Source: a virus (taxonomy: Duplodnaviria > Heunggongvirae > Uroviricota > Caudoviricetes). From it: a stretch of DNA of 19,115 nt. Both the position numbers and the translations under genes were made by a program. Shown one piece after another: positions 745-16,124 of this stretch (position 1 is its first letter; every line of letters begins with the position of its first letter). The notes beneath the pieces are model-generated. The model ran no database searches and was not told where the DNA came from. It saw only the letters and a list, made by a program, of their open reading frames with translations. The DNA is taken from the IMG/VR virus record IMGVR_UViG_2617270954_000002, one strand, 5' to 3'.

Positions 745-2644
745 TGCAGCCGGTGCGATAGCTACAGGGCTTTTATCTCTCATTATTCCTGTTCCACTGA
801 CGACAGTTCAGTGGGCCAATAAACATTATTACCTTCCTAAAGAGTCGTCTTATACCCCCGGGCGGTGGGAAACACTGCCGTTTCAGGTTGGCATCATGAA
901 CTGTATGGGCAACGATCTGATTCGCACGGTTAACCTGATTAAATCTGCCCGTGTTGGTTATACAAAGATGTTGCTGGGAGTGGAGGCTTATTTTATTGAG
1001 CATAAATCACGCAACAGCCTTCTTTTTCAGCCCACGGATTCTGCTGCTGAAGATTTTATGAAATCTCATGTGGAACCCACGATCAGGGATGTGCCGGTTT
1101 TACTCGATCTTGCACCGTGGTTTGGGCGTAAACATCGTGATAATACCCTCACGCTGAAACGTTTTTCATCCGGTGTGGGGTTCTGGTGTCTGGGTGGTGC
1201 GGCAGCAAAAAACTACCGTGAAAAATCCGTGGATGTGGTCTGTTATGACGAGCTTTCCTCGTTCGAACCGGATGTCGAAAAAGAGGGTTCGCCAACCCTG
1301 CTTGGGGATAAACGTATTGAGGGCTCTGTATGGCCCAAATCCATTCGCGGCTCGACGCCTAAAATCAAAGGCACCTGCCAGATCGAAAAAGCGGCCAACG
1401 AGTCGGCGCATTTCATGCGTTTTTATGTGCCCTGCCCACACTGTGGGGAGGAGCAGTATCTGAAATTTGGCGATGAATCCACGCCTTTTGGCCTTAAATG
1501 GGAGAAGGACAGCCCCGAAAGCGTTTTCTACCTCTGTGAACATCATGGCTGCGTGATCCATCAGTCTGAGCTTGACCAGAGCAACGGGCGGTGGATCTGT
1601 GAAAACACGGGGATGTGGACCCGTGACGGTCTGACGTTTTTCAGCGCCGCGGATAATGAAATTCCGCCGCCGCGCTCCATCACGTTCCATATCTGGACGG
1701 CGTACAGTCCGTTCACCACCTGGGTACAGATAGTCTATGACTGGCTGGATGCACTGAAAGATCCCAACGGCCTGAAAACCTTTGTGAACACCACGCTGGG
1801 CGAGACCTGGGAAGAGGCCGTGGGCGAAAAACTCGATCACCAGGTACTGATGGATAAGGTCGTGCATTACACGGCGGCGGTGCCAGCCCGGGTGGTTTAT
1901 CTGACGGCGGGCATTGACTCGCAGCGAAACCGTTTTGAGATGTATGTCTGGGGATGGGCTCCGGGAGAGGAAGCCTTTCTGGTGGATAAAATCATCATTA
2001 TGGGGCGTCCCGATGAGGAAGAGACGCTGTTACGTTTGGATGCGGCGATCAACAAAAAATACTGCCATGCAGACGGAACCGAAATGACCATTTCCCGTGT
2101 CTGCTGGGACACCGGGGGGATCGATGGTGAAATTGTCTATCAGAGGTCAAAAAAACACGGTGTTTTCCGGGTGCTGCCGGTAAAAGGCGCATCTGTCTAT
2201 GGCAAGCCGGTGATCACCATGCCGAAAACCCGCAATCAGCGGGGCGTGTATCTGTGTGAAGTGGGGACGGACACCGCAAAAGAAATTCTCTATGCCCGTA
2301 TGAAAGCCGATCCCACGCCTGCGGATGAAGCCACGTCGTATGCCATCCGTTTTCCTGATGATCCGGAGATTTTTTCGCAGACAGAGGCGCAGCAACTGGT
2401 GGCGGAAGAGCTTGTGGAGAAGTGGGAAAAAGGAAAGATGCGTCTGCTGTGGGATAACAAAAAGCGGCGTAACGAAGCGCTGGACTGCCTGGTGTATGCC
2501 TATGCGGCATTACGTGTGTCCGTGCAACGCTGGCAGCTTGATCTGGCTGTACTGGCAAAATCCCGGGAAGAAGAGACGACCCGGCCAACCCTTAAAGAAC
2601 TGGCAGCGAAGCTGTCCGGAGGAGTGAATGGTTACAGTCGCTGA
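716..2644 (+). CDS. A: terminase large subunit (gpA-like; ATPase/endonuclease)
   Basis: ORF 674..2644 aligns along its length with recalled lambda gpA (YYLPKES.[12 protein letters not shown], [28 protein letters not shown]). Start placed at the in-frame ATG at 716, which overlaps the Nu1 3' end as in lambda; ATG 674 is the alternative. Confidence 0.88.
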
Positions 2645-2834
2645 ACTACAGGCGCTGCGTCAGGCGCGCCTTGATTTATTAACCGGTAAACGGGTGGTGT
2701 CTGTCCAGAAAGATGGTCGCAGAATTGAATATACGGCGGCTTCTCTGGATGAGCTTAACCGGGCGATCAATGATGCGGAGTCGGTACTGGGGACAACCCG
2801 ACGTCGCCGTCGTCCGCTGGGAGTGAGGTTATGA
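2628..2834 (+). CDS. W: head-tail joining protein gpW-like
   Basis: 68 aa, same length as lambda gpW, with motif LLTGKRVVSVQKDGRRIEYTAAS; overlaps the A stop and the B start (ATGA). Confidence 0.85.
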   Translation: MVTVAELQALRQARLDLLTGKRVVSVQKDGRRIEYTAASLDELNRAINDAESVLGTTRRRRRPLGVRL

Positions 2835-4423
2835 AACGAACGCCTGTCCTGATTGATGTGAACGGCGTTCCGCTTCGTGAGAGTCTCAGCTACAACGGGG
2901 GCGGCGCAGGATTTGGCGGGCAAATGGCTGAGTGGTTGCCACCGGCGCAGAGTGCCGATGCAGCCCTGCTGCCCGCGTTGCGTCTGGGGAATGCCCGGGC
3001 AGATGATCTGGTGCGCAATAACGGAATAGCGGCCAATGCGGTGGCCCTGCATAAGGATCACATTGTCGGGCATATGTTTCTGATTAGCTACCGTCCGAAC
3101 TGGCGCTGGCTGGGGATGCGGGAGACCGCGGCAAAAAGTTTTGTCGATGAGGTGGAGGCGGCCTGGTCAGAATACGCAGAAGGGATGTTTGGTGAGATCG
3201 ACGTGGAAGGGAAACGCACGTTTACGGAATTTATCCGTGAAGGTGTGGGCGTTCATGCGTTTAACGGCGAAATCTTTGTGCAGCCGGTCTGGGATACGGA
3301 GAGCACGCAACTGTTTCGTACGCGTTTTAAAGCCGTGAGTCCGAAACGGGTGGACACGCCAGGACACGGTATGGGGAACCGTTTTCTGCGGGCCGGTGTG
3401 GAGGTCGATCGATATGGTCGTGCCGTTGCGTACCATATCTGTGAGGATGATTTTCCTCGCTCCGGGAGTGGACGATGGGAACGGATCCCGCGTGAACTTC
3501 CCACCGGGCGTCCGGCCATGCTGCATATTTTCGAGCCGGTGGAGGACGGGCAGACCCGTGGAGCCAATCAGTTTTACAGCGTAATGGAACGGCTGAAGAT
3601 GCTCGATTCCCTGCAGGCAACACAGCTTCAGTCGGCCATAGTGAAGGCGATGTATGCAGCGACGATTGAAAGTGACCTTGATACCGAAAAGGCCTTTGAA
3701 TATATCGCCGGTGCGCCGCAGGGGCAGAAGGATAATCCGCTTATTAATATTCTGGATAAGTTCTCCACCTGGTATGACACGAATAGCGTGACGCTGGGCG
3801 GTGTCAAAATTCCGCACCTTTTCCCCGGTGATGATCTGAAACTTCAGACCGCGCAGGATTCAGACAATGGATTTTCGGCGCTTGAACAGGCGCTGCTGCG
3901 GTATATCGCCGCCGGTCTTGGCGTTTCCTACGAACAGTTGTCCCGTGATTACTCGAAGGTCAGTTATTCAAGTGCCCGCGCATCCGCCAATGAGTCGTGG
4001 CGCTATTTTATGGGGCGGCGAAAATTTATTGCGTCCCGGCTGGCCACGCAGATGTTTTCCTGCTGGCTGGAAGAGGCACTTCTTCGGGGGATTATTCGTC
4101 CGCCACGGGCACGTTTTGATTTTTATCAGGCGCGTTCAGCCTGGTCACGGGCTGAGTGGATTGGTGCCGGAAGAATGGCCATTGACGGGCTCAAGGAGGT
4201 TCAGGAATCGGTGATGCGTATTGAGGCCGGACTGAGCACGTATGAGAAAGAGCTGGCGCTGATGGGCGAGGATTATCAGGACATTTTCCGCCAGCAGGTC
4301 AGGGAATCTGCAGAGCGGGAAAAAGCCGGACTCTCACGTCCGGTGTGGATAGCGCAGGCGTATCAGCAGCAGATAGCGGAGAGTCGCAGGCCGGAAGAGG
4401 AGACAACACCACGTGAGACGTAA
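2831..4423 (+). CDS. B: portal protein gpB-like
   Basis: 530 aa (lambda gpB about 533 aa); long blocks recalled as matching lambda B, e.g. FEPVEDGQTRGANQFYSVME, LLRYIAAGLGVSYEQLSR, GRMAIDGLKEVQESVM. Confidence 0.9.
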   Translation: MKRTPVLIDVNGVPLRESLSYNGGGAGFGGQMAEWLPPAQSADAALLPALRLGNARADDLVRNNGIAANAVALHKDHIVGHMFLISYRPNWRWLGMRETAAKSFVDEVEAAWSEYAEGMFGEIDVEGKRTFTEFIREGVGVHAFNGEIFVQPVWDTESTQLFRTRFKAVSPKRVDTPGHGMGNRFLRAGVEVDRYGRAVAYHICEDDFPRSGSGRWERIPRELPTGRPAMLHIFEPVEDGQTRGANQFYSVMERLKMLDSLQATQLQSAIVKAMYAATIESDLDTEKAFEYIAGAPQGQKDNPLINILDKFSTWYDTNSVTLGGVKIPHLFPGDDLKLQTAQDSDNGFSALEQALLRYIAAGLGVSYEQLSRDYSKVSYSSARASANESWRYFMGRRKFIASRLATQMFSCWLEEALLRGIIRPPRARFDFYQARSAWSRAEWIGAGRMAIDGLKEVQESVMRIEAGLSTYEKELALMGEDYQDIFRQQVRESAEREKAGLSRPVWIAQAYQQQIAESRRPEEETTPRET

Positions 4424-5918
4424 TCTTTCACACATTATTGCAGCAGCATTCAATGAACCGCTGCTTCTGGAGCCCGCCTATGCGCGGGTTTTCTTTTGCG
4501 CGCTCGGGCGCGAGATGGGGGCAGCAAGTCTTTCGGTACCACAACAGCAGGTACAGTTTGATGCTCCCGGAATGCTGGCTGAAACGGACGAGTACATGGC
4601 CGGAGGTAAACGACCGGCCCGTGTTTACCGGGTGGTGAACGGTATTGCTGTACTGCCGGTGACAGGCACGCTGGTGCACCGGCTGGGCGGTATGCGGCCA
4701 TTTTCCGGAATGACAGGCTATGACGGCATTGTCGCCTGTCTTCAGCAGGCAATGGCAGATAGCCAGGTGCGGGGCGTACTGCTGGACATTGACAGTCCGG
4801 GCGGGCAGGCCGCCGGTGCGTTTGACTGTGCTGACATGATTTACCGCCTCCGTCAGCAGAAGCCGGTCTGGGCACTGTGCAATGACACGGCCTGTTCTGC
4901 AGCCATGCTGCTGGCGTCGGCCTGCTCCCGACGGCTGGTTACCCAGACATCCCGTATCGGCTCCATTGGTGTGATGATGAGCCATGTCAGCTATGCCGGT
5001 AATCTGGCGCAGGCCGGTGTGGATATCACGCTGATTTACTCAGGGGCGCACAAGGTGGATGGCAATCAGTTTGAAGTCTTACCGGAAGAGGTGCGTCAGG
5101 ACATGCAGCAGCGGATTGATGCGGCGCGCCGGATGTTTGCCGAAAAAGTGGCGATGTATACCGGTCTGTCTGTTGATGCAGTCACGGGAACAGAGGCCGC
5201 CGTTTTTGAAGGTCAGTCCGGCATTGAGGCCGGGCTGGCGGATGAATTAATCAATGCGTCGGATGCCATCAGTGTGATGGCCACGGCGCTGAACAGTAAT
5301 GTCAGAGGAGGCACTATGCCGCAATTAACTGCAACGGAAGCTGCCGCGCAGGAGAACCAGCGAGTGATGGGGATCCTGACGTGTCAGGAAGCGAAAGGAC
5401 GTGAACACCTTGCCACGATGCTGGCAGGACAACAGGGCATGAGCGTTGAACAGGCCCGGGCGATTCTGACCGCGGCAGCACCACAGCAGCCGGTGGCATC
5501 CACGCAGAGTGAAGCCGATCGCATTATGGCGTGTGAAGAGGCTAAAGGTCGTGAACAACTGGCGGCAACGCTGGCGGCGATGCCGGAGATGACGGTGGAA
5601 AAAGCCCGCCCGATCTTGGCTGCCTCACCGCAGGCGGATGCCGGGCCCTCACTTCGTGATCAGATCATGGCCCTGGATGAGGCAAAAGGGGCAGAAGCGC
5701 AGGCTGAAAAACTGGCGGCGTTTCCCGGAATGACGGTGGAGGCTGCCCGCGACATTCTGTCCTCATCGCCGGATAAAGCAGAACCGGTCTCTGCATCCAC
5801 AACTGCCCTGTTTGAACATTTCATGGCGAATCATTCACCGGCAGCGGTGCGGGGTGGCGTGTCACAGACGTCAGCAGACGGTGATGCGGACGTGAAAATG
5901 CTCATGGCCATGCCATGA
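4413..5918 (+). CDS. C: prohead protease/scaffold protein gpC-like (S49/ClpP-type fold), C-terminal scaffold domain
   Basis: 501 aa; N-terminal FNEPLLLEPAYARVFFCAL and the VWALCND..SAA..LASA / TSRIGSIGVMM region match recalled lambda gpC; overlaps the B stop. Confidence 0.85.
   Translation: MRRNLSHIIAAAFNEPLLLEPAYARVFFCALGREMGAASLSVPQQQVQFDAPGMLAETDEYMAGGKRPARVYRVVNGIAVLPVTGTLVHRLGGMRPFSGMTGYDGIVACLQQAMADSQVRGVLLDIDSPGGQAAGAFDCADMIYRLRQQKPVWALCNDTACSAAMLLASACSRRLVTQTSRIGSIGVMMSHVSYAGNLAQAGVDITLIYSGAHKVDGNQFEVLPEEVRQDMQQRIDAARRMFAEKVAMYTGLSVDAVTGTEAAVFEGQSGIEAGLADELINASDAISVMATALNSNVRGGTMPQLTATEAAAQENQRVMGILTCQEAKGREHLATMLAGQQGMSVEQARAILTAAAPQQPVASTQSEADRIMACEEAKGREQLAATLAAMPEMTVEKARPILAASPQADAGPSLRDQIMALDEAKGAEAQAEKLAAFPGMTVEAARDILSSSPDKAEPVSASTTALFEHFMANHSPAAVRGGVSQTSADGDADVKMLMAMP
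5316..5918 (+). CDS. Nu3: nested in-frame scaffold protein (Nu3-like), internal start within the C frame
   Basis: In-frame ATG at 5316 preceded by a strong Shine-Dalgarno (AGAGGAGG, 5304-5311); about 600 nt, close to the recalled lambda Nu3 length; shares its stop with C. Confidence 0.5.
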   Translation: MPQLTATEAAAQENQRVMGILTCQEAKGREHLATMLAGQQGMSVEQARAILTAAAPQQPVASTQSEADRIMACEEAKGREQLAATLAAMPEMTVEKARPILAASPQADAGPSLRDQIMALDEAKGAEAQAEKLAAFPGMTVEAARDILSSSPDKAEPVSASTTALFEHFMANHSPAAVRGGVSQTSADGDADVKMLMAMP

Positions 5919-5954
5919 AGTCAGTGCTGACCATCAATATGAGGTTTTAACAAA

Positions 5955-6301
5955 ATGGTGACGAAAACCATCACTGAACAGCGTGCGGAAGTACGTATTT
6001 TTGCCGGTAATGATCCGGCTCATACCGCCACAGGCAGCAGCGGGATTTCTCAGCAACACCGGCACTGACGCCCCTGATGCTGGATGAAGCCACCGGGAAA
6101 CTGGTGGTCTGGGACGGACAGAAAGCCGGTAGTGCGGCTGGCATACTGGTACTGCCGCTTGAAGGCACAGAGACGGTGCTGACCTATTACAAGTCGGGGA
6201 CCTTTGCGACGGAGGCAATCCGCTGGCCTGACAGTGTGGATGAACACAAAAAGGCAAATGCCTTTGCCGGCACAGCCCTGAGTCACGCGGCTCTGCCGTA
6301 A
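5955..6301 (+). pseudogene. D: head decoration protein gpD-like, interrupted by a frame break (candidate pseudogene or sequencing indel)
   Basis: ATG at 5955 gives MVTKTITEQRAEVRIFAGNDPAHTATGSSGISQQHRH then TGA at 6066-6068. The rest of the D homolog (LTPLMLDEATGKLVVWDG...YKSGTF...AFAGTA) continues to 6301 in the -1 frame. Lambda gpD is recalled as one continuous 110 aa protein. Confidence 0.6.
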
Positions 6302-6308
6302 CACGTTA

Positions 6309-6330
6309 TCAGGCCACCATGGTGGCCTGA
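6309..6330. repeat. 22-bp perfect palindrome (TCAGGCCACCATGGTGGCCTGA) in the D-E intergenic region
   Basis: The sequence equals its own reverse complement; it lies between the D stop (6301) and the E start (6359). Confidence 0.6.
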
Positions 6331-6358
6331 CTGATTTCTGAATGAAAGGAACTGATTT

Positions 6359-7387
6359 ATGGGATTGTTTACGACCCGCCAGTTACTCGGTTATACCGAA
6401 CAAAAAGTTAAATTCCGTGCGCTATTTCTGGAGCTGTTTTTCCGCCGTACGGTGAATTTCCACACCGAAGAGGTGATGCTGGACAAAATTACCGGAAAAA
6501 CGCCGGTGGCGGCCTATGTCTCCCCGATCGTTGAAGGAAAAGTGCTGCGCCATCGTGGTGGTGAAACCCGCGTGTTGCGTCCGGGCTACGTCAAGCCGAA
6601 ACACGAATTTAATTACCAGCAGGCGGTGGAGCGCCTTCCCGGTGAAGATCCGGCTCAGCTGAACGACCCGGCCTACCGTCGTCTGCGTATCATCACTGAT
6701 AACCTCAAACAGGAAGAGCACGCTATTGTGCAGGTGGAAGAAATGCAGGCGGTGAATGCCGTGCTGTATGGCAAATATACGATGGAAGGAGACCAGTTCG
6801 AGAAAATTGAGGTTGATTTTGGCAGATCGACGAAGAATAACATCATACAGGGTAGCGGTAAGGAGTGGTCAAAACAGGACCGTGACACGTTCGACCCGAC
6901 ATATGATATCGACCTTTTCTGTGATCAGGCCAGTGGTCTTGTGAATATTGCCATTATGGACGGTACCGTCTGGCGTCTGCTGAATGGCTTTAAGCTGTTC
7001 CGCGAAAAAATGGATACCCGTCGCGGTTCAAATTCACAACTCGAAACGGCAGTGAAAGACCTGGGCGCAGTGGTATCCTTCAAGGGGTATTACGGCGATC
7101 TGGCCATTGTGGTAGCGAAAACATCTTATGTGGCAGAGGACGGTACCGAAAAACGTTATCTGCCGGAGGGCACGCTGGTCCTGGGAAATACGGCTGCTGA
7201 GGGCATTCGTTGCTATGGTGCCATTCAGGATGCGCAGGCGTTGTCCGAAGGTGTGGTGGCCTCTTCCCGTTATCCGAAACACTGGCTGACCGTGGGCGAT
7301 CCGTCCTGTGAATTCACCATGACGCAGTCCGCTCCGCTGATGGTGCTGCCGGATCCGGATGAGTTTGTGGTGGTACAGGTGAAATAA
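6359..7387 (+). CDS. E: major capsid protein gpE-like
   Basis: 342 aa (lambda gpE 341 aa); motifs PGYVKPKHE, AIVQVEEMQAV, KLFREKMDTRRGSNSQLETAVKDLG and FTMTQSAPLMVLPDPDEFV match recalled lambda E. Confidence 0.92.
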   Translation: MGLFTTRQLLGYTEQKVKFRALFLELFFRRTVNFHTEEVMLDKITGKTPVAAYVSPIVEGKVLRHRGGETRVLRPGYVKPKHEFNYQQAVERLPGEDPAQLNDPAYRRLRIITDNLKQEEHAIVQVEEMQAVNAVLYGKYTMEGDQFEKIEVDFGRSTKNNIIQGSGKEWSKQDRDTFDPTYDIDLFCDQASGLVNIAIMDGTVWRLLNGFKLFREKMDTRRGSNSQLETAVKDLGAVVSFKGYYGDLAIVVAKTSYVAEDGTEKRYLPEGTLVLGNTAAEGIRCYGAIQDAQALSEGVVASSRYPKHWLTVGDPSCEFTMTQSAPLMVLPDPDEFVVVQVK

Positions 7388-7395
7388 TCCGTGAG

Positions 7396-7424
7396 CGGGG
7401 GCGAAATGCCCCCGTGTCTTTTTT
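7396..7424 (+). terminator. candidate rho-independent terminator/stem-loop after the capsid gene
   Basis: Stem CGGGGGC (7396-7402), loop GAAAT, stem GCCCCCG (7408-7414), followed by TGTCTTTTTT. Confidence 0.5.
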
Positions 7425-7439
7425 CACAGGGGGCTGGAT

Positions 7440-7809
7440 ATGGCAACAAAAGAAGAAAATCAGAAACGTCTTCGTGAACTGGCTGGCCTGCTGGGGCGCG
7501 AGGCGGATATGTCGGGGAGTGCTGCGGATATCGCACAGCGTGTGGCAGAGTGGGAAGAGGAGGTTTGCGCATCGGAAAATGAAATCGCAGATGTTGATGA
7601 TACCGTTTATGAGCAGGCATACAGGAACACCGGTGAGGATGACGTTCGGTATTCTGGAACGTATCATGCTTCTGAAGTGTTTTTACCTGTGCGGTGTTGA
7701 CGATGAAACAGGTGAGCCTGTTGAGCATGTTGATGCTGGCAGAGTAATTCTGATGCCCCCCTCAGTGGCAAAAGACATGGTCAGGAGCGGAATGGCCGTT
7801 TATGCGTGA
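7440..7809 (+). pseudogene. FI: DNA-packaging protein gpFI-like, split across two reading frames
   Basis: Frame of 7440 gives an N-terminus like recalled lambda FI (..LRELAGLLGRE...AADIAQRVAEWEEEV) and stops at 7698-7700. The FI-like C-terminus (LLKCFYLCGVDDETGEPV...AKDMVRSGMAVYA) is in the +1 frame, ending at 7809 and overlapping the FII start (ATGCGTGA). Break lies roughly within 7600-7650. Confidence 0.55.
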
Positions 7810-8155
7810 TTTTGAGAATTCCTTTGATGCTGCCCTTGCCGGGGTGGACAGAACGATTGTTGAAGTGATGGGGCTCTGTGCGCAGTTCACCTCGGGGGCA
7901 CAGTGTGGCAGCGAAGTTCAGGGGGTTTTTGACGATCCGGAGTCGCTGGGGTTTGCCGGTAGCGGGGTCCGTATTGAAGGAAGCAGCCCGTCATTATTTG
8001 TGCGGACGGATACGGTTCGTGCCGTGCGGCGTGGTGACACGCTGACCATTAATGGTGAGACATTCTGGGTGGATCGTGTTTCTCCGGATGACGGGGGTAG
8101 CTGTTATCTCTGGCTCAACCGTGGGCAACCACCCGCAGTTAACCGGCGACGATAA
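7802..8155 (+). CDS. FII: head-tail connector/tail attachment protein gpFII-like
   Basis: 117 aa, same as lambda FII; GVFDDPE, GVRIEGSSPSLFVRTD and FWVDRVSPDDGGSCYLWL..PPAVNRRR match recalled lambda FII. Confidence 0.88.
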   Translation: MRDFENSFDAALAGVDRTIVEVMGLCAQFTSGAQCGSEVQGVFDDPESLGFAGSGVRIEGSSPSLFVRTDTVRAVRRGDTLTINGETFWVDRVSPDDGGSCYLWLNRGQPPAVNRRR

Positions 8156-8169
8156 ACGCAGGGTGAATT

Positions 8170-8744
8170 ATGGCGATAAAAGGGCTTGATCAGGCGATTG
8201 ACAATCTGAGCCGGGTTCGTAAAAACGCCATTCCGGCTGCTTCTGCAATGACCATTAACCGCGTGGCCACAACGGCGATTAATCAGTCTTCATCACAGGT
8301 TGCCCGGGAGACAAAGGTTCGCCGGAAACTGGTTAAGGAACGGTCCAGACTGAAACGGGCGACGGTCAGAAATCCGAATGCCAGAATTATCGTTAACCGC
8401 GGTGATCTCCCTGTGATTAAGCTGGGGATCAGAATGCTGGGGCGTCGTCCGAACAGCATACTCAAAGCCGGTCAGCATCGTTATCAGCGGGCATTTATCC
8501 AGCGATTAAATAATGGGCGCTGGCATGTTATGCAACGTCTTCCCCAGGCCAGATATGACGGTGGCATGTCATGCAGCGTGTGGCCGGGAAAAATCGTTAC
8601 CCCATTGATGTGGTGAAAATTCCGATGGCGGTGCCGCTGACCACGGCGTTTAAACAGAATATTGAGCGGATACGGCGTGAGCGCCTTCCGAAAGAGCTGG
8701 GCTATGCGCTGCAGCATCAACTGAGGATGGTAATAAAGCGATGA
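8170..8744 (+). pseudogene. Z: minor tail protein gpZ-like, disrupted by a 41-bp imperfect tandem duplication causing a frame change
   Basis: N-terminus MAIKGLDQAIDNLSR..QVARETKVRRKLVKER.RLKRATV..NRGDLPVIKLG runs in the frame of 8170 through GRWHVMQR and stops at 8614-8616. A second WHVMQR, followed by the lambda-like C-terminus [54 protein letters not shown], starts at 8562 in another frame and ends at 8742-8744. Confidence 0.6.
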
Positions 8745-9136
8745 AACATACTGAACTCCGTGCAGCCGTACTGGATGCACTGGAGAAGCATGACACCGGG
8801 GCGACGTTTTTTGATGGTCGCCCCGCTGTTTTTGATGAGGCGGATTTTCCGGCAGTTGCCGTTTATCTCACCGGCGCTGAATACACGGGCGAAGAGCTGG
8901 ACAGCGATACCTGGCAGGCGGAGCTGCATATCGAAGTTTTCCTGCCTGCTCAGGTGCCGGATTCAGAGCTGGATTCGTGGATGGAGTCCCGGATTTATCC
9001 GGTGATGAGCGATATCCCGGCACTGTCAGATTTGATCACCAGTATGGTGGCCAGTGGCTATGACTATCGGCGCGACGATGATGCGGGCCTGTGGAGTTCA
9101 GCCGATCTGACTTATGTCATTACCTATGAAATGTGA
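8741..9136 (+). CDS. U: minor tail protein gpU-like (tail terminator)
   Basis: 131 aa; appears near-identical to my recollection of lambda gpU ([54 protein letters not shown]...); start overlaps the Z stop (ATGA). Confidence 0.9.
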
Positions 9137-9143
9137 GGACGCT

Positions 9144-9896
9144 ATGCCTGTACCAAATCCAGTAATGCCGGTGAAAGGTGCCGGGACCACACTGTGGGTT
9201 TATAAGGGGAACGGTGACCCTTATGCGAACCCGCTTTCAGACGTTGACTGGTCACGTCTGGCAAAAGTTAAAGACCTGACGCCGGGCGAGATGACGGCAG
9301 AATCCTACGATGATAACTACCTGGATGATGAAGACGCAGACTGGACCGCGACCGGGCAGGGGCAGAAATCTGCAGGTGATACCAGTTTTACGCTGGCCTG
9401 GAAACCGGGAGAGGAATGTCAGAAAGGGCTTATAGGCTGGTTTGAAAGCGGCGATGTCCGGGCCTATAAAATCCGTTTTCCGAATGGCACGGTGGATGTG
9501 TTTCGTGGCTGGGTCAGCAGTATCGGTAAGGCCGTGACGGCGAAAGAAGTGATCACCCGCACGGTGAAAGTCACTAACGTGGGTAAACCTTCTGTAGCGG
9601 AAGAACGCAGCAAAATTACGCCGGTCAGTGCGATTAAGGTGACGCCGACATCCGGTACGGTGGCAAAAGGGAAAACAACCACCCTGACGGTTTCTTTTGA
9701 GCCGGAAAGTGCAACCGACAAGACGTTCAGAGCGGTTTCCGCCGATCCGTCGAAAGCCACCATTAGTGTGAAAGATATGACAATTACGGTAAACGGCGTG
9801 GCGACAGGTAAGGTGCAGATCCCTGTGGTGAGCGGAAATGGTCAGTTCGCCGCAGTGGCTGAAGTCACCGTTACTGAAGCGGGCGCTGCAGGGTAA
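9144..9896 (+). CDS. V: major tail tube protein gpV-like with C-terminal Ig-like (BIG2-type) domain
   Basis: ORF 9114..9896; lambda-like start [22 protein letters not shown] at ATG 9144 with a GAGGA Shine-Dalgarno upstream; long stretches match recalled lambda V. Confidence 0.9.
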
Positions 9897-9909
9897 ACGG
9901 AGGTAATAC

Positions 9910-10341
9910 ATGTTTCTGAAAACAGAACAATTTGAATATAACGGTGTGTCTGTCACGCTTTCCGAATTGTCTGCGCTGCAGCGTATCGAGCATCTTGCCC
10001 TCCTGAAACGGCGTGCAGAACAGGCAGAATCCTGCGGCAACCTGCAGGTTAGCGTGGAAGATCTCGTCAGAACCGGCGCGTTTCTGGTGGCGATGTCCCT
10101 GTGGCATAACCATCCACAGAAAACGCAGTCACCGTCAATGAATGAGGCCGTGATGAAGATAGAGCAGGAAGTGCTCACCACCTGGCCTGCCGATGCCATT
10201 GCCCGGGCGGAAGACGTGGTGTTGTGCCTGTCCGGGATGATCGAAGCTGTTCGTCCGGATACTGATATTACTGAAGTGGCGAAAAATAACACGCTGACTG
10301 ATGATGATTTTTCTGCGGGAAAGTCTTCGACGGCGAGCTGA
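9910..10341 (+). CDS. G: tail assembly chaperone gpG-like
   Basis: 143 aa; MFLKTEQFEYNGVSVTLSELSALQRIEHLAL..TGAFLVAMSLWHNHPQKTQ matches recalled lambda G. Confidence 0.88.
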   Translation: MFLKTEQFEYNGVSVTLSELSALQRIEHLALLKRRAEQAESCGNLQVSVEDLVRTGAFLVAMSLWHNHPQKTQSPSMNEAVMKIEQEVLTTWPADAIARAEDVVLCLSGMIEAVRPDTDITEVAKNNTLTDDDFSAGKSSTAS

Positions 10342-10781
10342 ACTTTGCCCTCAGACTGGCGCGTGAGATGGGGAGACCCGACTGGCGCGCCATGCTTGCC
10401 GGGATGACATCCACCGAATATGCCGACTGGCACCGTTTTTACCGCACGCATTATTTTCAGGATACCCAGCTGGATATGCATTTTTCCGGGCTGACGTACG
10501 CTGTACTCAGCCTGTTTTTTTGCGATCCGGATATGCATCCCTCTGATTTCAGTCTGCTTGTCCCCCGGCATGAGGAAGAGCAGGTGGAGAGGCCGGATGA
10601 GGACAAAATGCTGATGCAGAAAGCGGCAGGACTTGCCGGAGGCGTCCGGTTCGGTGGGGACGGAGGGCGCGATATTTTATCGTCTGCGGATGTGGCGGAT
10701 GTCATGGTGGATGATGCCGCATTAATGATGGCTTCAGCGGGGATTCCGGGAGGTGTGAGATATGTCCCAGCCGGTTGGTGA
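9910..10781 (+). CDS. GT: tail assembly chaperone gpG-T fusion made by programmed -1 ribosomal frameshift
   Basis: Slippery heptamer GGGAAAG at 10317-10323 near the 3' end of G; the -1 frame continues VFDGELNFALRLAREMGRPDWRAMLAGMTSTEYADWHRFY... (lambda gpT-like) to the stop at 10779-10781. Confidence 0.75.
10317..10323 (+). promoter_or_regulatory. programmed -1 frameshift slippery site (G GGA AAG) for G-T
   Basis: Exact GGGAAAG heptamer in the G frame, 6 codons before the G stop; the T frame is open downstream. Confidence 0.7.
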
Positions 10782-13323
10782 TCTTGTTATTGACCTGAGT
10801 CTGGATGCTGTCCGTTTCGATGAGCAGATGAGCCGGGTAAGGCGTCATTTTTCAGGTCTGGATACCGACGCCAGAAAAACCGCCAGTGCTGTTGAACAGG
10901 GCCTGAGCCGCCAGGCGCTGGCTGCACAAAAAGCCGGGATTTCCGTCGGGCAGTATAAAGCGGCCATGCGAACCCTGCCCGCACAGTTTACGGATATCGC
11001 CACGCAGCTTGCCGGTGGTCAGAATCCCTGGTTGATCCTGCTGCAACAGGGCGGTCAGGTGAAGGACTCCTTCGGCGGGATGATCCCCATGTTCAGGGGG
11101 CTTGCCGGTGCGATCACCCTGCCGATGGTCGGGGTCACCTCGCTGGCGGTGGCGACAGGTGCGCTGGCGTACGCCTGGTACCAGGGCGACGCCACGCTTT
11201 CAGAATTTAATAAAACGCTGGTCCTTTCCGGCAATCAGGCCGGACTGACTGCCGATCGTATGCTGACGCTCTCAAGAGCCGGGCAGGCAGCAGGGCTGAC
11301 GTTTAACCAGGCGAGAGAGTCACTGGCAGCCCTGGTGAATGCCGGTGTGCGTGGTGGTGAACAGTTTGATGCCATCAACCAGAGTGTCGCGCGTTTTGCG
11401 TCTGCATCCGGTGTGGAGGTGGATAAAGTCGCTGAAGCCTTCGGGAAGCTGACCACTGACCCGACGTCGGGACTGATGGCGATGGCGCGCCAGTTCCGTA
11501 ACGTGACGGCAGAGCAGATTGCGTATGTTGCACAGCTGCAGCGTTCCGGAGACGAGGCCGGGGCATTGCAGGCGGCGAACGATATCGCCACGAAAGGCTT
11601 TGATGAGCAGACCCGTCGCCTGAAAGAAAACATGGGAACACTGGAGACCTGGGCGGATAAAACAGGGAAGGCATTCAAATCGATGTGGGATGCCATTCTG
11701 GATATCGGTCGTCCGGAATCCTCAGCGGATATGCTCGCCAGTGCGCAGAGGGCATTTGATGAGGCGGATAAAAAATGGCAGTGGTACCAGAGCCGGAGCC
11801 AGCGCCGGGGAAAGACCTCCTCTTTTCGTGCGAACCTTCAGGGGGCATGGGATGACCGGGAAAATGCCCGTCTGGGTCTGGCAGCGGCCACGCTGCAGTC
11901 GGATATGGAAAAAGCCGGTGAACTGGCGGCAAGGGACAGGGCTGAGCGTGAGTCGTCACAGCTGAAGTATACCGGAGAGGCGCAGAAGGCGTATGAGCGC
12001 CTGCAGACGCCGCTGGATAAATATACCGCCCGTCAGAAAGAGCTGAATAAGGCCCTGAAAGACGGAAAAATCCTGCAGGCGGATTACAACACGCTGATGG
12101 CGTCGGCAAAAAAGGATTATGAATCGACGCTGAAAAAGCCGTCAGGTGTGAAGGTGTCTGCCGGTGAGCGCCAGGAAGACCGGGCGCATGCAGCCCTGCT
12201 GGCGCTTGAAACCGAGCTCAGGACGCTGGAAAAACACAGCGGTGTGAATGAGAAAATCAGCCAGCAGCGCCGGGATTTATGGGAAGCGGAAAGTCAGTAT
12301 GTGGTCCTGAAAGAGGCCGCCACGAAACGGCAGTTATCTGAGCAGGAAAAATCCCTGCTGGCTCATGAGAAAGAGACGCTGGAGTACAAACGCCAGCTGG
12401 CTGAGCTGGGAGACAAGATTGAACACCAGAAGCGGCTGAATGAGCTGGCACAGCAGGCGGCGCGGTTTGAACAGCAGCAAAGCGCGAAGCAGGCGGCAAT
12501 CAGCGCAAAAGCCCGCGGCCTCACCGACCGTCAGGCGCAGCGGGAGTCGGAAGAGCAGCGCCTTCGTGAGGTGTACGGTGATAATCCGGCTGCGCTGGCG
12601 AAGGCCACATCGGCACTGAAGAACACCTGGTCTGCGGAGGAGCAGCTTCGTGGAAGCTGGATGGCCGGGATGAAGTCCGGCTGGGGAGAGTGGGCGGAAA
12701 GTGCGACGGACAGTTTTTCGCAGGTTAAAAGTGTGGCCACGCAGACCTTTGACGGTATTGCACAGAATATGGCGGCGATGCTGACCGGCAGCGAACAGAA
12801 CTGGCGGGGATTCACCCGTTCCGTGCTGTCCATGATGACAGAAATTCTGCTTAAGCAGGCAATGGTGGGGATTGTCGGGAGTATCGGCAGCGCCATTGGC
12901 GGGGCTGTTGGTGGCGGCGCATCCGCGTCAGGCGGTACAGCCATTCAGGCCGCTGCGGCGAAATTCCATTTTGCAACCGGAGGATTTACGGGAACCGGCG
13001 GCAAATATGAGCCAGCGGGGATTGTTCACCGTGGTGAATTTGTCTTCACAAAGGAGGCAACCAGCCGGATTGGCGTGGGGAATCTCTACCGGCTGATGCG
13101 CGGCTATGCCACCGGTGGTTATGTCGGTACACCGGGCAGTCTGGCTGACAGCCGGTCGCAGGCGTCCGGGACGTTTGAGCAGAATAACCATGTGGTGATT
13201 AACAACGACGGCACGAACGGGCAGATAGGTCCGGCTGCTCTGAAGGCGGTGTATGACATGGCCCGCAAGGGTGCCCGTGATGAAATTCAGACACAGATGC
13301 GTGATGGTGGACTGTTCTCCTGA
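10762..13323 (+). CDS. H: tail tape measure protein gpH-like
   Basis: 853 aa (same as recalled lambda gpH); N-terminus PVGDLVIDLSLDAVRFDEQM and C-terminal region AMVGIVGSIGSAIGGAVGGGASASGG...GTNGQIGPAALKAVYDMARKGARDEIQTQMRDGGLFS match lambda H. Confidence 0.92.
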   Translation: MSQPVGDLVIDLSLDAVRFDEQMSRVRRHFSGLDTDARKTASAVEQGLSRQALAAQKAGISVGQYKAAMRTLPAQFTDIATQLAGGQNPWLILLQQGGQVKDSFGGMIPMFRGLAGAITLPMVGVTSLAVATGALAYAWYQGDATLSEFNKTLVLSGNQAGLTADRMLTLSRAGQAAGLTFNQARESLAALVNAGVRGGEQFDAINQSVARFASASGVEVDKVAEAFGKLTTDPTSGLMAMARQFRNVTAEQIAYVAQLQRSGDEAGALQAANDIATKGFDEQTRRLKENMGTLETWADKTGKAFKSMWDAILDIGRPESSADMLASAQRAFDEADKKWQWYQSRSQRRGKTSSFRANLQGAWDDRENARLGLAAATLQSDMEKAGELAARDRAERESSQLKYTGEAQKAYERLQTPLDKYTARQKELNKALKDGKILQADYNTLMASAKKDYESTLKKPSGVKVSAGERQEDRAHAALLALETELRTLEKHSGVNEKISQQRRDLWEAESQYVVLKEAATKRQLSEQEKSLLAHEKETLEYKRQLAELGDKIEHQKRLNELAQQAARFEQQQSAKQAAISAKARGLTDRQAQRESEEQRLREVYGDNPAALAKATSALKNTWSAEEQLRGSWMAGMKSGWGEWAESATDSFSQVKSVATQTFDGIAQNMAAMLTGSEQNWRGFTRSVLSMMTEILLKQAMVGIVGSIGSAIGGAVGGGASASGGTAIQAAAAKFHFATGGFTGTGGKYEPAGIVHRGEFVFTKEATSRIGVGNLYRLMRGYATGGYVGTPGSLADSRSQASGTFEQNNHVVINNDGTNGQIGPAALKAVYDMARKGARDEIQTQMRDGGLFS

Positions 13324-13331
13324 GGTGGACG

Positions 13332-13661
13332 ATGAAAACCTTCCGCTGGAAAGTGAAACCCGGGATGGATGTGACATCGGCTCCTTCCGTCAGGGAGGTG
13401 CGCTTTGGTGATGGCTATTCCCAGCGTGCGCCTGCCGGGCTGAACGCTGACCTGAAAACGTACAGCGTGACGCTGTCTGTCTCCCGTGAGGAGGCCACGG
13501 CGCTGGAGTCGTTTCTGGCTGAGCACGGGGGCTGGAAGGCCTTTCTGTGGACGCCGCCTTATGGTTACAGGCAGATAAAGGTGACCTGCGCAAAATGGTC
13601 GTCGCAGGTCAGTATGTTGCGTGTTGGGTTCAGCGCAGAGTTTAAACAGGTGGTGAACTGA
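13332..13661 (+). CDS. M: minor tail protein gpM-like
   Basis: 109 aa, same as lambda M; position after H; sequence recalled as lambda M-like. Confidence 0.85.
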   Translation: MKTFRWKVKPGMDVTSAPSVREVRFGDGYSQRAPAGLNADLKTYSVTLSVSREEATALESFLAEHGGWKAFLWTPPYGYRQIKVTCAKWSSQVSMLRVGFSAEFKQVVN

Positions 13662-14359
13662 TGCAGGATATCCGGCAGGAAACACTGAATGAATGCACCC
13701 GTGCGGAGCAGTCGGCCAGCGTGGTGCTCTGGGAAATCGATCTGACAGAGGTCGGTGGAGAACGTTATTTTTTCTGTAATGAGCAGAACGAAAAAGGTGA
13801 GCCGGTCACCTGGCAGGGGAGGCAGTATCAGGCGTATCCCATTCAGGGGAGCGGTTTTGAACTGAATGGCAAAGGCACCAGTACGCGGCCCACGCTGGCA
13901 GTCTCTAACCTGTACGGCATGGTCACCGGTATGGTGGAAGATATGCAGAGTCTGGTCGGCGGAACGGTGGTCCGGCGTAAGGTTTACGCCCGTTTTCTGG
14001 ATGCGGTGAACTTCGTCAACGGAAACAGAGACGCCGATCCGGAGCAGGAGGTGATCAGCCGCTGGCGCATCGAGCAGTGCAGCGAACTGAGCGCGGTGAG
14101 TGCCTCCTTTGTACTGTCCACGCCGACGGAAACGGATGGCGCTGTTTTTCCGGGGCGTATCATGCTGGCCAACACCTGCACCTGGACCTATCGCGGTGAT
14201 GAGTGCGGTTATCACGGTCCGGCAGTCGCGGATGAATATGACCAGCCGACGTCCGATATCACGAAGGATAAATGCAGCAAATGCCTGAGCGGCTGTAAGT
14301 TTCGCAATAACGTCGGCAACTTTGGCGGCTTCCTTTCCATTAACAAACTTTCGCAGTAA
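13661..14359 (+). CDS. L: minor tail protein gpL-like (tail tip complex; lambda L binds an Fe-S cluster via C-terminal cysteines)
   Basis: 232 aa, same as lambda L; start overlaps the M stop (TGATG); Cys-rich C-terminus (CTWTYRGDECGY...DKCSKCLSGCKFRNN). Confidence 0.85.
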   Translation: MQDIRQETLNECTRAEQSASVVLWEIDLTEVGGERYFFCNEQNEKGEPVTWQGRQYQAYPIQGSGFELNGKGTSTRPTLAVSNLYGMVTGMVEDMQSLVGGTVVRRKVYARFLDAVNFVNGNRDADPEQEVISRWRIEQCSELSAVSASFVLSTPTETDGAVFPGRIMLANTCTWTYRGDECGYHGPAVADEYDQPTSDITKDKCSKCLSGCKFRNNVGNFGGFLSINKLSQ

Positions 14360-14363
14360 TCCC

Positions 14364-15107
14364 ATGACAGAGACAGAATCAGCGATTCTGGCGCACGCCC
14401 GGCGATGTGCGCCAGCGGAGTCGTGCGGCTTCGTGGTAAGCACGCCGGAGGGGGAAAGATATTTCCCCTGCGTGAATATCTCCGGTGAGCCGGAGGCGTA
14501 TTTCCGGATGGCTCCGGAGGACTGGCTGCAGGCAGAGATGCAGGGTGAGATTGTGGCGCTGGTCCACAGCCACCCCGGTGGTCTGCCCTGGCTGAGTGAG
14601 GCTGACCGGCGGCTGCAGGTGCAGAGCGATTTGCCGTGGTGGCTGGTCTGCCGGGGGGCGATTCACAAGTTCCGCTGTGTGCCGCATCTCACCGGGCGGC
14701 GCTTTGAGTACGGGGTGACGGACTGTTACACACTGTTCCGGGATGCTTACCATCTGGCGGGGATTGAGATGCCGGATTTTCATCGCGGGGATGACTGGTG
14801 GCGTCACGGTCAGAATCTCTATCTTGACAATATGGAGGCTACTGGTTTTTACCGTGTCGCACTGACAGAGGCGCAGCCGGGCGATGTGCTGCTGTGCTGT
14901 TTTGGTTCATCGGTGCCGAATCACGCCGCCATTTACTGCGGCGACGGTGAGCTGCTGCACCATATTCCTGAACAACTGAGTAAACGAGAGAGGTATACCG
15001 ACAAATGGCAGCGACGCACACACTCCCTCTGGCGTCACCGGGAATGGCACGCATCTGCCTTTACGGGGATTTGCAACGATTTGGCCGCCGCATCGACCTT
15101 CGAGTGA
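14364..15107 (+). CDS. K: tail tip assembly protein gpK-like (JAB/MPN metalloprotease-like plus NlpC/P60-like domains)
   Basis: ORF 14322..15107; lambda-like start MTETESAILAHARRCAPAESCGFV at ATG 14364; HSHPGG (JAMM-like) motif and a downstream Cys/His region; overlaps the I start by about 100 nt as in lambda. Confidence 0.8.
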   Translation: MTETESAILAHARRCAPAESCGFVVSTPEGERYFPCVNISGEPEAYFRMAPEDWLQAEMQGEIVALVHSHPGGLPWLSEADRRLQVQSDLPWWLVCRGAIHKFRCVPHLTGRRFEYGVTDCYTLFRDAYHLAGIEMPDFHRGDDWWRHGQNLYLDNMEATGFYRVALTEAQPGDVLLCCFGSSVPNHAAIYCGDGELLHHIPEQLSKRERYTDKWQRRTHSLWRHREWHASAFTGICNDLAAASTFE

Positions 15108-15646
15108 AAACGGGGGCTGAAGCCATCCGGGCACTGGCCACACAGCTCCCGGCGTTTCGTCAGAAACTGAGCGATGGCTGGTATCAGGTACGGATTGCCG
15201 GGCGGGATGCAGGAGAAACCGAATTATCATCCCGTCTTAATGAGCCGCTGGCAAATGGTGCCGTGATCCACATCGTGCCGCGTCTTGCGGGAGCAAAAAG
15301 TGGCGGTGTGTTTCAGGCGGTGCTGGGTGCGGCGTTGATTGCTACGGCAATCTGGATGCCGGGGATCAGTATCGCTTTCAGTGACATTCTCTTTTCAATG
15401 GGTGCGGCGATGACGCTTGGTGGTGTGGCGCAGATGCTGGCACCGAAAGCCAGAACTCCCCGTACACAGACAACGGATAACGGCAAACAGAACACCTATT
15501 TCTCCTCACTGGATAACATGGTTGCCCAGGGCAATGTCCTGCCTGTTCTGTACGGTGAAATGCGCGTGGGGTCACGTGTGGCATCTCAGGAGATCAGCAC
15601 GGCAGATGAAGGGGATGGTGGTCAGGTTGTGGTAATTGGGCGGTAA
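15005..15646 (+). CDS. I: tail tip assembly protein gpI-like
   Basis: 213 aa; YFSSLDNMVAQGNVLPVLYGEMRVGSRVASQEISTADEGDGGQVVVIGR matches the recalled lambda I C-terminus. Confidence 0.82.
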   Translation: MAATHTLPLASPGMARICLYGDLQRFGRRIDLRVKTGAEAIRALATQLPAFRQKLSDGWYQVRIAGRDAGETELSSRLNEPLANGAVIHIVPRLAGAKSGGVFQAVLGAALIATAIWMPGISIAFSDILFSMGAAMTLGGVAQMLAPKARTPRTQTTDNGKQNTYFSSLDNMVAQGNVLPVLYGEMRVGSRVASQEISTADEGDGGQVVVIGR

Positions 15647-15669
15647 TATTATTTTACTCATGTTCTAAC

Positions 15670-15700
15670 TGATTTAATATTTATATCGAACACTGATAAT
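15670..15700 (+). promoter_or_regulatory. candidate sigma70-type promoter for the lipoprotein gene (weak call)
   Basis: AT-rich stretch with a -10-like GATAAT (15695-15700) about 20 nt upstream of the ATG and weak -35-like hexamers (TGATTT/TTAATA) about 17-19 nt further upstream; no strong consensus. Confidence 0.2.
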
Positions 15701-15719
15701 TATTCTATTGGTTAGCTAT

Positions 15720-16058: not shown

Positions 16059-16082
16059 TAGTTAATCCTGTCGTAACTCATG

Positions 16083-16110: not shown

Positions 16111-16124
16111 ATGGAGTGTGAGGA

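What the first reader, a model, noticed from the sequence alone, without database searches (positions are those of the whole stretch)
8518..8605. 41-bp imperfect tandem duplication in Z: a recombination scar that breaks the frame
TGGCATGTTATGCAACGTCT (8521-8540) and TGGCATGTCATGCAGCGTGT (8562-8581) encode WHVMQR twice, 41 nt apart. The first copy continues in a non-lambda frame (LPQARYDGG...) to a stop at 8614; the second continues as the lambda-like Z C-terminus in another frame. The Z N-terminus is diverged from lambda while everything from the second copy through U is near-identical to lambda, so this looks like an illegitimate recombination junction between two Z alleles. As written, Z cannot be made full length.
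Basis: seen in the sequence. Interest (0 to 1): 0.6.

Follow-up and report, generated by a model that had tools for sequence, protein, structure and literature searches.

The report
Chimeric assembly joint in prophage Z
The repeated 20 bases that break the phage tail gene Z are where sequence from two different prophages of the same E. coli O104:H4 genome was stitched together out of register, most likely by the short-read assembler, so it is probably not a biological feature.

Summary
TGGCATGTTATGCAACGTCT (8521-8540) recurs with 3 mismatches at 8562-8581, 41 nt downstream, and Z is split into a 148-aa ORF (8170-8616) and a 57-aa ORF (8571-8744).

It is not a duplication that arose in place. 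It is a joint between two Z alleles. Up to 8558 the window is identical to prophage "A" of complete O104:H4/ST678 genomes, whose Z is intact (576 bp). From 8559 to 9283 (725 nt, 0 mismatches) it is identical to a second prophage "B" of those same genomes, whose Z is also intact (579 bp).

The window is a whole draft contig of E. coli 2-177-06_S4_C3 (O104:H4, ST678; 100-bp Illumina reads, MaSuRCA).
- Across 1-7700 it flips about 54 times between A and B alleles.
- It has no private substitutions there.
- Some B tracts are under 12 nt.
- Two 1-nt hybrid indels break D and FI.
- The junction occurs in no other sequence searched, and five more broken or chimeric proteins (FI piece, V, E, C, large terminase) are also found on this contig only.

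Verdict: about 0.85 that this is a chimeric consensus of co-resident prophages, about 0.1 that it is a real ectopic exchange. Interest is low.

The parts
8170..8558 (+). Z 5' part, from the prophage-A allele (O104:H4-type, 576-bp Z). It contains copy 1 and the A-specific continuation CTTCCCCAGGCCAGATATGA.
   Evidence: Identical to FORC_069 prophage A: 859/859 over 7700-8558, and w==A up to 8558. See also alignment A1.
8518..8540 (+). Repeat copy 1 (CGCTGGCATGTTATGCAACGTCT, encodes RWHVMQR). This is the A-allele version.
8559..8581 (+). Repeat copy 2 (CGGTGGCATGTCATGCAGCGTGT, encodes RWHVMQR in another frame). This is the B-allele version. Its first base, 8559, is the first base of the B-derived patch.
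8558..8559 (.). Left joint ATATGA|CGGTGG. There is no shared base at the joint and it is 41 nt out of homologous register. It is within 1 nt of physical colinearity with A: the window Z region is 575 bp and A's is 576 bp.
   Evidence: Three-way alignment. Exact extension test gives left extension 0.
8559..9283 (+). A 725-nt patch identical to prophage B. It covers the Z 3' part, all of U, and the first 140 nt of V.
   Evidence: 0 mismatches to L010 (FORC_069 prophage B). Only 548/733 (74.8%) identical to prophage A over 8559-9290.
9276..9283 (+). Right joint. The switch from B back to A falls inside an 8-nt stretch (CTGACGCC) shared by A and B, in register.
8170..8616 (+). 148-aa ORF (GenBank KDX03650.1): Z residues 1-129, then A-specific and out-of-frame residues, then a stop.
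8571..8744 (+). 57-aa ORF: the lambda-type Z C-terminus starting at the Met of WHVMQR.
8586..8592 (+). G_GGA_AAA heptamer in register with the incoming frame. A -1 slip here would give a 191-aa hybrid Z. Listed only for the low-probability reading.
   Evidence: Sequence and translation. No stable structure downstream (z-score +0.92).
6045..6052 (+). 1-nt hybrid deletion that breaks D. A has TTCTG, B has TCAGG, the window has TCAG.
7642..7647 (+). 1-nt hybrid insertion that breaks FI. A has ACGTT, B has CTTTC, the window has ACGTTC.

Best explanation
The joint is most likely an artefact of assembling 100-bp reads from a genome that carries two or more closely related lambdoid prophages. The contig backbone is prophage A of the O104:H4/ST678 lineage. 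Where A and its co-resident relative B are 90-99% identical (terminase to FII), reads or super-reads of both copies were merged, and the consensus flips between A and B alleles. In the Z-U-V region a 725-nt stretch of pure B sequence was laid onto the A layout, anchored at its right-hand side. It was carried leftwards without the 42-nt gap that a homologous alignment needs. B's RWHVMQR codons therefore land 41 nt after A's, and the frame is lost. In the real genome both prophages probably have an intact Z, as in every complete genome of the lineage examined. Shown here: the parentage of each segment, the chimerism of the contig, its uniqueness, and the source and assembly method. Inferred: that the joining happened in the assembler and not in the cell.
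For: 1) Source. The window is the whole contig JNPZ01000054.1 of E. coli 2-177-06_S4_C3. The isolate is ST678, O104:H4, 191 contigs, sequenced as HiSeq 100-bp reads and assembled with MaSuRCA 2.3.2 (PMC6222053 methods and Table S1).
2) Parents. The window is colinear and equal in length with prophage A of FORC_069 and 20 or more O104:H4 complete genomes. It is 100% identical to A at 7700-8558 and at 9291-13300. The stretch 8559-9283 is 100% identical to prophage B of the same genome. Z is intact in both A and B.
3) Chimerism. In 1-7700 every substitution difference from A is the B allele (about 190 A-type and about 130 B-type informative sites). There are about 54 switches, many inside identical stretches of 2-12 nt, and B tracts as short as under 12 nt, for example the single B site at 5086.
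4) Private changes. The only private changes in 1-7700 are two 1-nt length errors. They lie at 2 of just 18 sites where A and B differ by clustered substitutions. Each equals what a consensus over a gapped two-allele alignment gives (TTCT-G/-TCAGG gives TCAG; ACGTT-/-CTTTC gives ACGTTC). An in-register crossover cannot change length.
5) Geometry. The left joint shares no base and is out of homologous register, yet it keeps physical length to within 1 nt (575 vs 576 bp). That is the expected result of overlaying sequence by position and not by homology.
6) Uniqueness. The junction is absent from 5,426 complete E. coli genomes, GTDB representatives, JGI metagenomes, IMG/VR, phages and plasmids. 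The 148-aa Z piece, the FI piece and the chimeric V, E, C and large terminase proteins each occur on this one contig only, out of about 15 billion proteins, and none has a Logan source.
Against: No reads could be examined, so the artefact is inferred and not demonstrated. A and B are only about 75% identical across the patch, so simple repeat collapse does not explain a clean 725-nt B block. It needs a low-stringency contig or unitig merge. From memory, unverified, MaSuRCA's template recommends cgwErrorRate=0.25 for bacteria. Chimerism is not uniform: 13001-15000 and 16501-17000 are 92-97% identical between A and B, yet the window is purely A there. Real exchange between co-resident or infecting lambdoid phages at short or imperfect homologies is documented (PMC3945230). 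The predicted reciprocal chimeras were not found, so there is no positive evidence of a path swap.
Confidence: 0.85

Rival explanations
1. The exchange is real. In this isolate, prophage A acquired 725 nt (Z 3' part, U, V 5' part) from co-resident prophage B by ectopic, largely homology-independent recombination, for example by a phage Red/RecET-type annealing recombinase or by template switching. The left joint was out of register, which inactivated Z and left the prophage tail-defective.
For: Both parents are expected in the same cell, since the isolate is ST678/O104:H4. The patch is a clean block with sharp ends. Relaxed recombination between lambdoid phages and prophages is documented (PMC3945230, found). 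An assembler needs an unusually permissive step to join sequences that are 75% identical.
Against: The same contig shows about 54 A/B switches, tracts under 12 nt and two out-of-register hybrid indels, with no private substitutions in 1-7700. Cellular recombination is very unlikely to give this pattern. The left joint has no microhomology yet preserves length to within 1 nt, an unexplained coincidence for an illegitimate event. Neither the junction nor any of the chimeric proteins occurs in any other sequence.
Confidence: 0.1
2. An in-place 41-bp tandem duplication arose by replication slippage inside one Z gene and later diverged.
For: Two similar 20-21-mers lie 41 nt apart, far beyond chance.
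Against: Only about 21 of the 41 nt are repeated. The three differences between the copies are exactly the A-versus-B allele differences. Copy 1 continues as the A allele and copy 2 continues as the B allele for 725 nt with 0 mismatches. A duplication followed by random divergence cannot reproduce another prophage's sequence.
Confidence: 0.01
3. The arrangement is real and tolerated. Full-length Z is restored either by a -1 ribosomal slip at G_GGA_AAA (8586-8592), giving a 191-aa hybrid, or by the 148-aa and 57-aa pieces acting together.
For: The heptamer is in register with the incoming frame, and the slip gives ...WPGKNRYPIDVVK..., 191 aa, the same length as the A-type Z. It resembles lambda's G/GT site G_GGA_AAG (own knowledge: Levin, Hendrix and Casjens 1993). 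ATG 8571 is preceded by GGTGG at 8560-8564.
Against: The arrangement is unique to one draft contig, so nothing shows it was selected. There is no stimulatory structure downstream (z-score +0.92). The heptamer exists simply because lambda-type Z encodes A-G-K-N there. In E. coli, X_XXA_AAA is a much weaker shift site than X_XXA_AAG (own knowledge). All of this is moot if the joint is an artefact.
Confidence: 0.01

Closest known systems
Chimeric or collapsed-repeat contigs in short-read assemblies of poly-lysogenic E. coli (O157, O104 and similar)
   Same: A draft contig from 100-bp reads. The parents are co-resident lambdoid prophages. Alleles alternate with no private substitutions in 1-7700. 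Consensus-type indel errors sit where the copies differ by clustered mismatches. The contig ends lie inside repeats.
   Different: The Z-U-V block joins sequences only about 75% identical and does so out of register. That is more than simple collapse and needs a permissive merge step. Read-level proof is lacking.
Phage lambda gpZ, the tail completion protein encoded between FII and U (Pfam PF06763 Minor_tail_Z)
   Same: Both ORF pieces match PF06763 strongly. The gene order FII-Z-U-V-G-T-H is lambda's. The 3' part is 96.8% identical to lambda Z.
   Different: The reading frame is interrupted. Profile positions 134-143 are present twice. No single ORF covers the family profile.
Mosaicism by relaxed recombination between lambdoid phages and resident prophages (De Paepe et al. 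2014, PMC3945230)
   Same: Sequence is exchanged between two lambdoid elements of one cell, and one joint (the right one) lies at a very short shared stretch within diverged homologous sequence.
   Different: Known products are in-register hybrids with a few exchange points. Here there are dozens of switches, tracts under 12 nt, length-changing hybrids and an out-of-register joint with no homology.
Lambda G/GT programmed -1 frameshift site (G_GGA_AAG)
   Same: A G_GGA_AAN heptamer lies in register with the incoming frame, inside a lambda tail gene cluster.
   Different: The last base is A and not G. The arrangement is not conserved, has no stimulator, and arises by accident from the frame change.

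Membership tests
Lambda gpZ / Pfam PF06763 Minor_tail_Z | Significant match to the family profile | tested here: met
   The 148-aa piece scores E 9.6e-35 over profile 1-143/190. The 57-aa piece scores E 5.4e-22 over profile 134-190.
Lambda gpZ / Pfam PF06763 Minor_tail_Z | One uninterrupted ORF of about 190 aa covering the whole profile | tested here: not met
   The gene is split into ORFs 8170-8616 and 8571-8744. The parental alleles are intact at 191 and 192 aa.
Lambda gpZ / Pfam PF06763 Minor_tail_Z | Position between FII (head-tail joining) and U (tail terminator) | tested here: met
   The gene order with Pfam families is given and matches lambda.
In-place tandem duplication (slippage) | The whole unit is repeated head to tail, and the copies differ only by later random changes | tested here: not met
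   Only 21 of 41 nt are repeated. The differences equal the A/B allele differences, and each copy continues as a different allele.
Biological inter-prophage recombination junction | Both parental sequences available in the same cell | tested here: met
   The isolate is ST678/O104:H4. Complete genomes of that lineage carry both A and B. This is inferred for this isolate and not seen directly.
Biological inter-prophage recombination junction | Junction supported by reads, or present in independent genomes | tested here: not met
   The junction is absent from every collection searched, and the 148-aa protein is on one contig only. Reads themselves could not be tested with these tools.
Biological inter-prophage recombination junction | Exchange points at shared sequence and in register | tested here: not met
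   The left joint shares 0 nt and is 41 nt out of register. The right joint shares 8 nt. Head-region switches fall inside identical stretches of 2-12 nt.
Chimeric or collapsed-repeat assembly consensus | Short-read draft contig from a genome with two or more near-identical repeat copies | tested here: met
   A/B identity is 89-99.8% per 500-nt bin over 1-8000.
Chimeric or collapsed-repeat assembly consensus | Alleles alternate between the copies at fine scale with no private substitutions | tested here: met
   About 54 switches in 1-7700 with 0 private substitutions.
Chimeric or collapsed-repeat assembly consensus | Length-changing hybrid errors where the copies differ by clustered mismatches | tested here: met
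   Sites 6049 and 7647, two of 18 such clusters. The Z joint is 575 bp against 576 and 579 bp in the parents.
Chimeric or collapsed-repeat assembly consensus | Reads do not span the joints; doubled depth and mixed bases in merged regions | not testable with these tools
   No read data are accessible here.
Programmed -1 ribosomal frameshift | Slippery heptamer X_XXY_YYZ in register, with the second frame open | tested here: met
   G_GGA_AAA lies at 8586-8592 and the hybrid product is 191 aa.
Programmed -1 ribosomal frameshift | Arrangement conserved among homologs, and/or a stimulatory element | tested here: not met
   The arrangement is unique to this contig. The downstream fold is no better than shuffles.

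The most novel reading that the evidence does not exclude
The joint is real. In a Tanzanian O104:H4 isolate, one resident lambdoid prophage overwrote 725 nt of another by a homology-independent, out-of-register exchange. Z is then made, if at all, only through a -1 slip at G_GGA_AAA, which happens to restore a 191-aa hybrid. This would be a caught-in-the-act example of illegitimate prophage-prophage exchange producing a recoding-dependent tail gene.
Probability: 0.02. Interest if true: 0.35.

Novelty: not a real feature. Interest (0 to 1): 0.07.

Why it matters
As biology it matters little. Z is intact in both parental prophages in every complete genome of this lineage examined, and broken tail genes in prophages would be ordinary even if this one were real. 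The practical point concerns data quality. This GenBank/RefSeq draft contig carries at least three artefactual gene breaks (D, FI, Z) and several chimeric proteins that exist nowhere else, some with their own RefSeq WP_ identifiers. Scans of draft assemblies of poly-lysogenic E. coli will keep flagging such joints as recombination scars or pseudogenes.

Tried and rejected
- Tandem duplication by slippage was rejected, because the copies are the A and B alleles.
- A natural third allele drawn from a recombining phage population was rejected. Such a sequence should have about as many private sites as A or B has. The window has none in 1-7700 apart from two hybrid indels, and only one more in 7701-17100.
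- Homopolymer sequencing error as the cause of the extra frameshifts was rejected. Sites 6049 and 7647 are not in homopolymers, and both sit on clustered A/B mismatches.
- A search for the junction elsewhere found nothing in complete E. coli genomes, phages, plasmids, GTDB representatives, JGI metagenomes or IMG/VR.
- Reciprocal chimeras were looked up by exact sequence: B-left/A-right Z of 134 aa, and A-left/B-right V of 246 aa. Neither is in the collection, so neither a path swap nor a reciprocal crossover is shown.
- A third parent for the private sites in J was sought. The 3' part (18533-18909) matches a J allele of unrelated genomes such as Ecol_448 at 99.5%. However, 28 sites in 17144-18413 match none of A, B or that allele, so this remains unresolved.
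- A frameshift stimulator downstream of G_GGA_AAA was not found.
- Literature confirmation of the assembler's permissive merge setting was attempted by searching 'cgwErrorRate'. It gave nothing usable for bacteria, so that point rests on memory only.

Full report
**Observation.** TGGCATGTTATGCAACGTCT lies at 8521-8540 and TGGCATGTCATGCAGCGTGT at 8562-8581, 41 nt apart with 3 mismatches. None of 200 dinucleotide-preserving shuffles gave two such matches. The repeat finder extends the pair to 21 nt, 8518-8538 and 8559-8579. ORF 8170-8616 (148 aa) carries the Z N-terminus and ends ...RWHVMQRLPQARYDGGMSCSVWPGKIVTPLMW*. ORF 8571-8744 (57 aa) reads MQRVAGKNRYPIDVVKIPMA...RMVIKR in another frame. Both pieces match Pfam PF06763 (Minor_tail_Z), over profile positions 1-143 and 134-190 of 190.

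**What the two copies are.** I aligned the window's Z region with intact Z genes of related prophages (alignment A1; A2). The window follows one allele up to ...CAGATATGA (8558). That allele is the 576-bp Z of an O104:H4 prophage, 191 aa, with ...WHVMQRLPQARYEEGNDDKGRKKRNRLPIQVVK.... From CGGTGGCATGTC (8559) onward the window follows the lambda-type allele (...WHVMQRVAGKNRYPIDVVK...). The three mismatches between the copies are exactly the differences between the two alleles. Only about 21 of the 41 nt are repeated. This is therefore a joint between two alleles, 41 nt out of homologous register, and not a duplication that arose in place. So is the statement that the sequence from copy 2 onward is lambda-like: the Z 3' part is 96.8% identical to lambda, U is 99.0%, and the first 140 nt of V are 94.3%, while the Z 5' part is only 66%.

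**Where the two alleles come from.** The whole 19,115-base window aligns in one piece, at equal length, with a prophage I call A in FORC_069 and in more than 20 O104:H4 complete genomes, at 97.3-97.8% identity. The differences are not spread evenly.
- The window is 859/859 identical to A over 7700-8558.
- It is 4010/4010 identical over 9291-13300.
- It is only 548/733 (74.8%) identical over 8559-9290.

The best match for that divergent stretch is a second lambdoid prophage, B, in the very same genomes. The window equals FORC_069's B at every base from 8559 to 9283 (725 nt, 0 mismatches). The base before 8559 differs in B, and the base after 9283 differs too. Z is annotated intact in both A (576 bp) and B (579 bp) in these genomes.

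**The source of the window.** An exact look-up of the 148-aa product finds a single contig, JNPZ01000054.1 of assembly GCA_000703565.1. That contig is 19,115 bp, so it is the entire window. The protein is KDX03650.1 of Escherichia coli 2-177-06_S4_C3. Table S1 of Richter et al. 2018 (PMC6222053) lists this isolate as JNPZ, ST678, phylogroup B1, serotype O104:H4, 5.57 Mb in 191 contigs. The methods state Illumina HiSeq 2000 100-bp reads assembled with MaSuRCA 2.3.2. The isolate therefore belongs to the lineage whose complete genomes carry both A and B, and the sequence is a short-read draft.

**The contig as a whole is an A/B chimera.** I aligned window, A and B together.
- Over 1-7700 (terminase to FII, where A and B are about 89-99.8% identical), every substitution by which the window differs from A is the B allele. 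There are about 190 A-type and 130 B-type informative sites.
- The window switches between the two about 54 times in that stretch.
- Many switches fall inside identical stretches of only 2-12 nt.
- Several B tracts are single sites bounded by A sites less than 60 nt apart. One, at 5086, lies between A sites at 5081 and 5093.
- A third, independent phage from a recombining population would have about as many private sites as A or B. The window has none in 1-7700 except two 1-nt length changes.

Both length changes are hybrids of the two parents, at places where A and B have the same length but differ by clustered substitutions.
- At 6049, A has TTCTG, B has TCAGG and the window has TCAG. This breaks D.
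- At 7647, A has ACGTT, B has CTTTC and the window has ACGTTC. This breaks FI.

Each is what a column-wise consensus over a gapped alignment of the two alleles produces (TTCT-G/-TCAGG and ACGTT-/-CTTTC). An in-register crossover in a cell cannot change length. Only 18 such mismatch clusters exist in 1-7700, and the only two private changes sit on two of them. Three structural genes (D, FI, Z) are thus "broken" in this contig, each exactly at an A/B switch.

**The geometry of the Z joint fits the same cause.** The left joint ATATGA|CGGTGG shares no base and ignores the obvious homology 41 nt upstream. Even so, the hybrid Z region is 575 bp against A's 576 bp. In other words, B sequence anchored on its right-hand side, where A and B align, was carried leftwards base for base over A's 14-codon-longer segment, and it stops abruptly. 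Overlay by position predicts this. Recombination guided by pairing does not, since it would give an in-register, in-frame hybrid. For an illegitimate break-and-join event the preserved length would be an unexplained coincidence. The right joint lies in an 8-nt shared stretch (9276-9283).

**Uniqueness.**
- The junction is absent from 5,426 complete E. coli genomes. The best hits are the 534-bp or 576-bp intact alleles, and matches to the lambda-type part start exactly at 8559.
- It is also absent from 50,697 phage records, PLSDB plasmids, GTDB representative genomes, JGI metagenomes and IMG/VR.
- Among about 15 billion proteins, the 148-aa Z piece, the 86-aa FI piece and the chimeric V, E, C and large terminase proteins each occur on this one contig only, and none comes from a Logan assembly. 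The parental versions occur on tens to more than a thousand contigs.
- The predicted reciprocal chimeras are not in the collection.

**Conclusion and its limits.** The best explanation, at about 0.85, is that the contig is a chimeric consensus of co-resident prophages and that the Z joint was made by the assembler. What I could not do is look at reads. Three facts argue for caution.
- A and B are only about 75% identical across the patch, so simple collapse does not explain a clean 725-nt block of B. A permissive merge step is needed. I recall, unverified, that MaSuRCA's template advises cgwErrorRate=0.25 for bacteria; a literature search did not settle this.
- Two stretches where A and B are 92-97% identical (13001-15000 and 16501-17000) are purely A in the window.
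- Real exchange between lambdoid phages and prophages at short, imperfect homology is well documented (PMC3945230).

I therefore leave about 0.1 for a real ectopic exchange that inactivated Z.

**Low-probability readings.** If the joint were real, the incoming frame places a G_GGA_AAA heptamer (8586-8592) in register. A -1 slip there would yield a 191-aa hybrid...SVWPGKNRYPIDVVK..., the same length as the A-type Z. The site resembles lambda's G/GT frameshift site G_GGA_AAG (own knowledge). The heptamer exists simply because lambda-type Z encodes A-G-K-N there. Nothing downstream folds better than shuffled sequence (z-score +0.92), and the arrangement is not conserved anywhere. I give this reading, or a two-piece Z, about 0.01-0.02.

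**Verdict.** The joint is most likely not a biological feature. Interest is low. Its practical value is as a warning about chimeric prophage contigs, and the pseudo-unique proteins they create, in short-read assemblies of poly-lysogenic E. coli.

Noticed in passing
window 5955-6301 (D), break at 6049: The head decoration gene D is frameshifted by a 1-nt hybrid deletion (A TTCTG, B TCAGG, window TCAG). Only a 74-aa ORF (6077-6301) was called, against 115 aa in the parents.
   Followed up: yes
window 7440-7809 (FI), break at 7647: FI is frameshifted by a 1-nt hybrid insertion (A ACGTT, B CTTTC, window ACGTTC) into 86-aa and 47-aa ORFs. Another assembly of the same project (3-475-03_S3_C2, KEK80379.1, 64 aa) also has a truncated FI in the same 90% cluster.
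   Followed up: partly
window 17100-18910 (J): J is a fine-scale mix of A alleles, B alleles and alleles of neither. The stretch 18533-18909 matches a J allele of unrelated genomes such as Ecol_448 at 99.5%. However, 28 sites in 17144-18413 match none of the three. This suggests at least one more lambdoid prophage in this 5.57-Mb isolate contributing to the consensus.
   Followed up: partly
window 15720-16058: A 112-aa ORF with no Pfam match lies between tail genes I and J. It is annotated as hypothetical protein WP_001332187.1 in prophage A and has no counterpart in prophage B (A/B identity 30% in 15501-16000). It looks like a moron-type insert.
   Followed up: no
window 8571-8744: The same 57-aa Z C-terminal ORF is annotated as a stand-alone or partial protein on 335 contigs, for example as 'Tail component of prophage CP-933X'. 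Truncated Z remnants or partial calls are therefore common in E. coli assemblies.
   Followed up: no
L010 10421-10999 (Z of prophage B, FORC_069): B's own intact Z is a natural in-register mosaic. Its first 70 or so codons are nearly identical to the A-type allele and the rest is lambda-type.
   Followed up: no
window 7388-7425: A G+C-rich hairpin (GGGGGCGAAATGCCCCC) followed by a T run lies just after the major capsid gene E. It looks like an intrinsic terminator. A and B differ there by 1 nt in the T run, and the window carries the B form.
   Followed up: no
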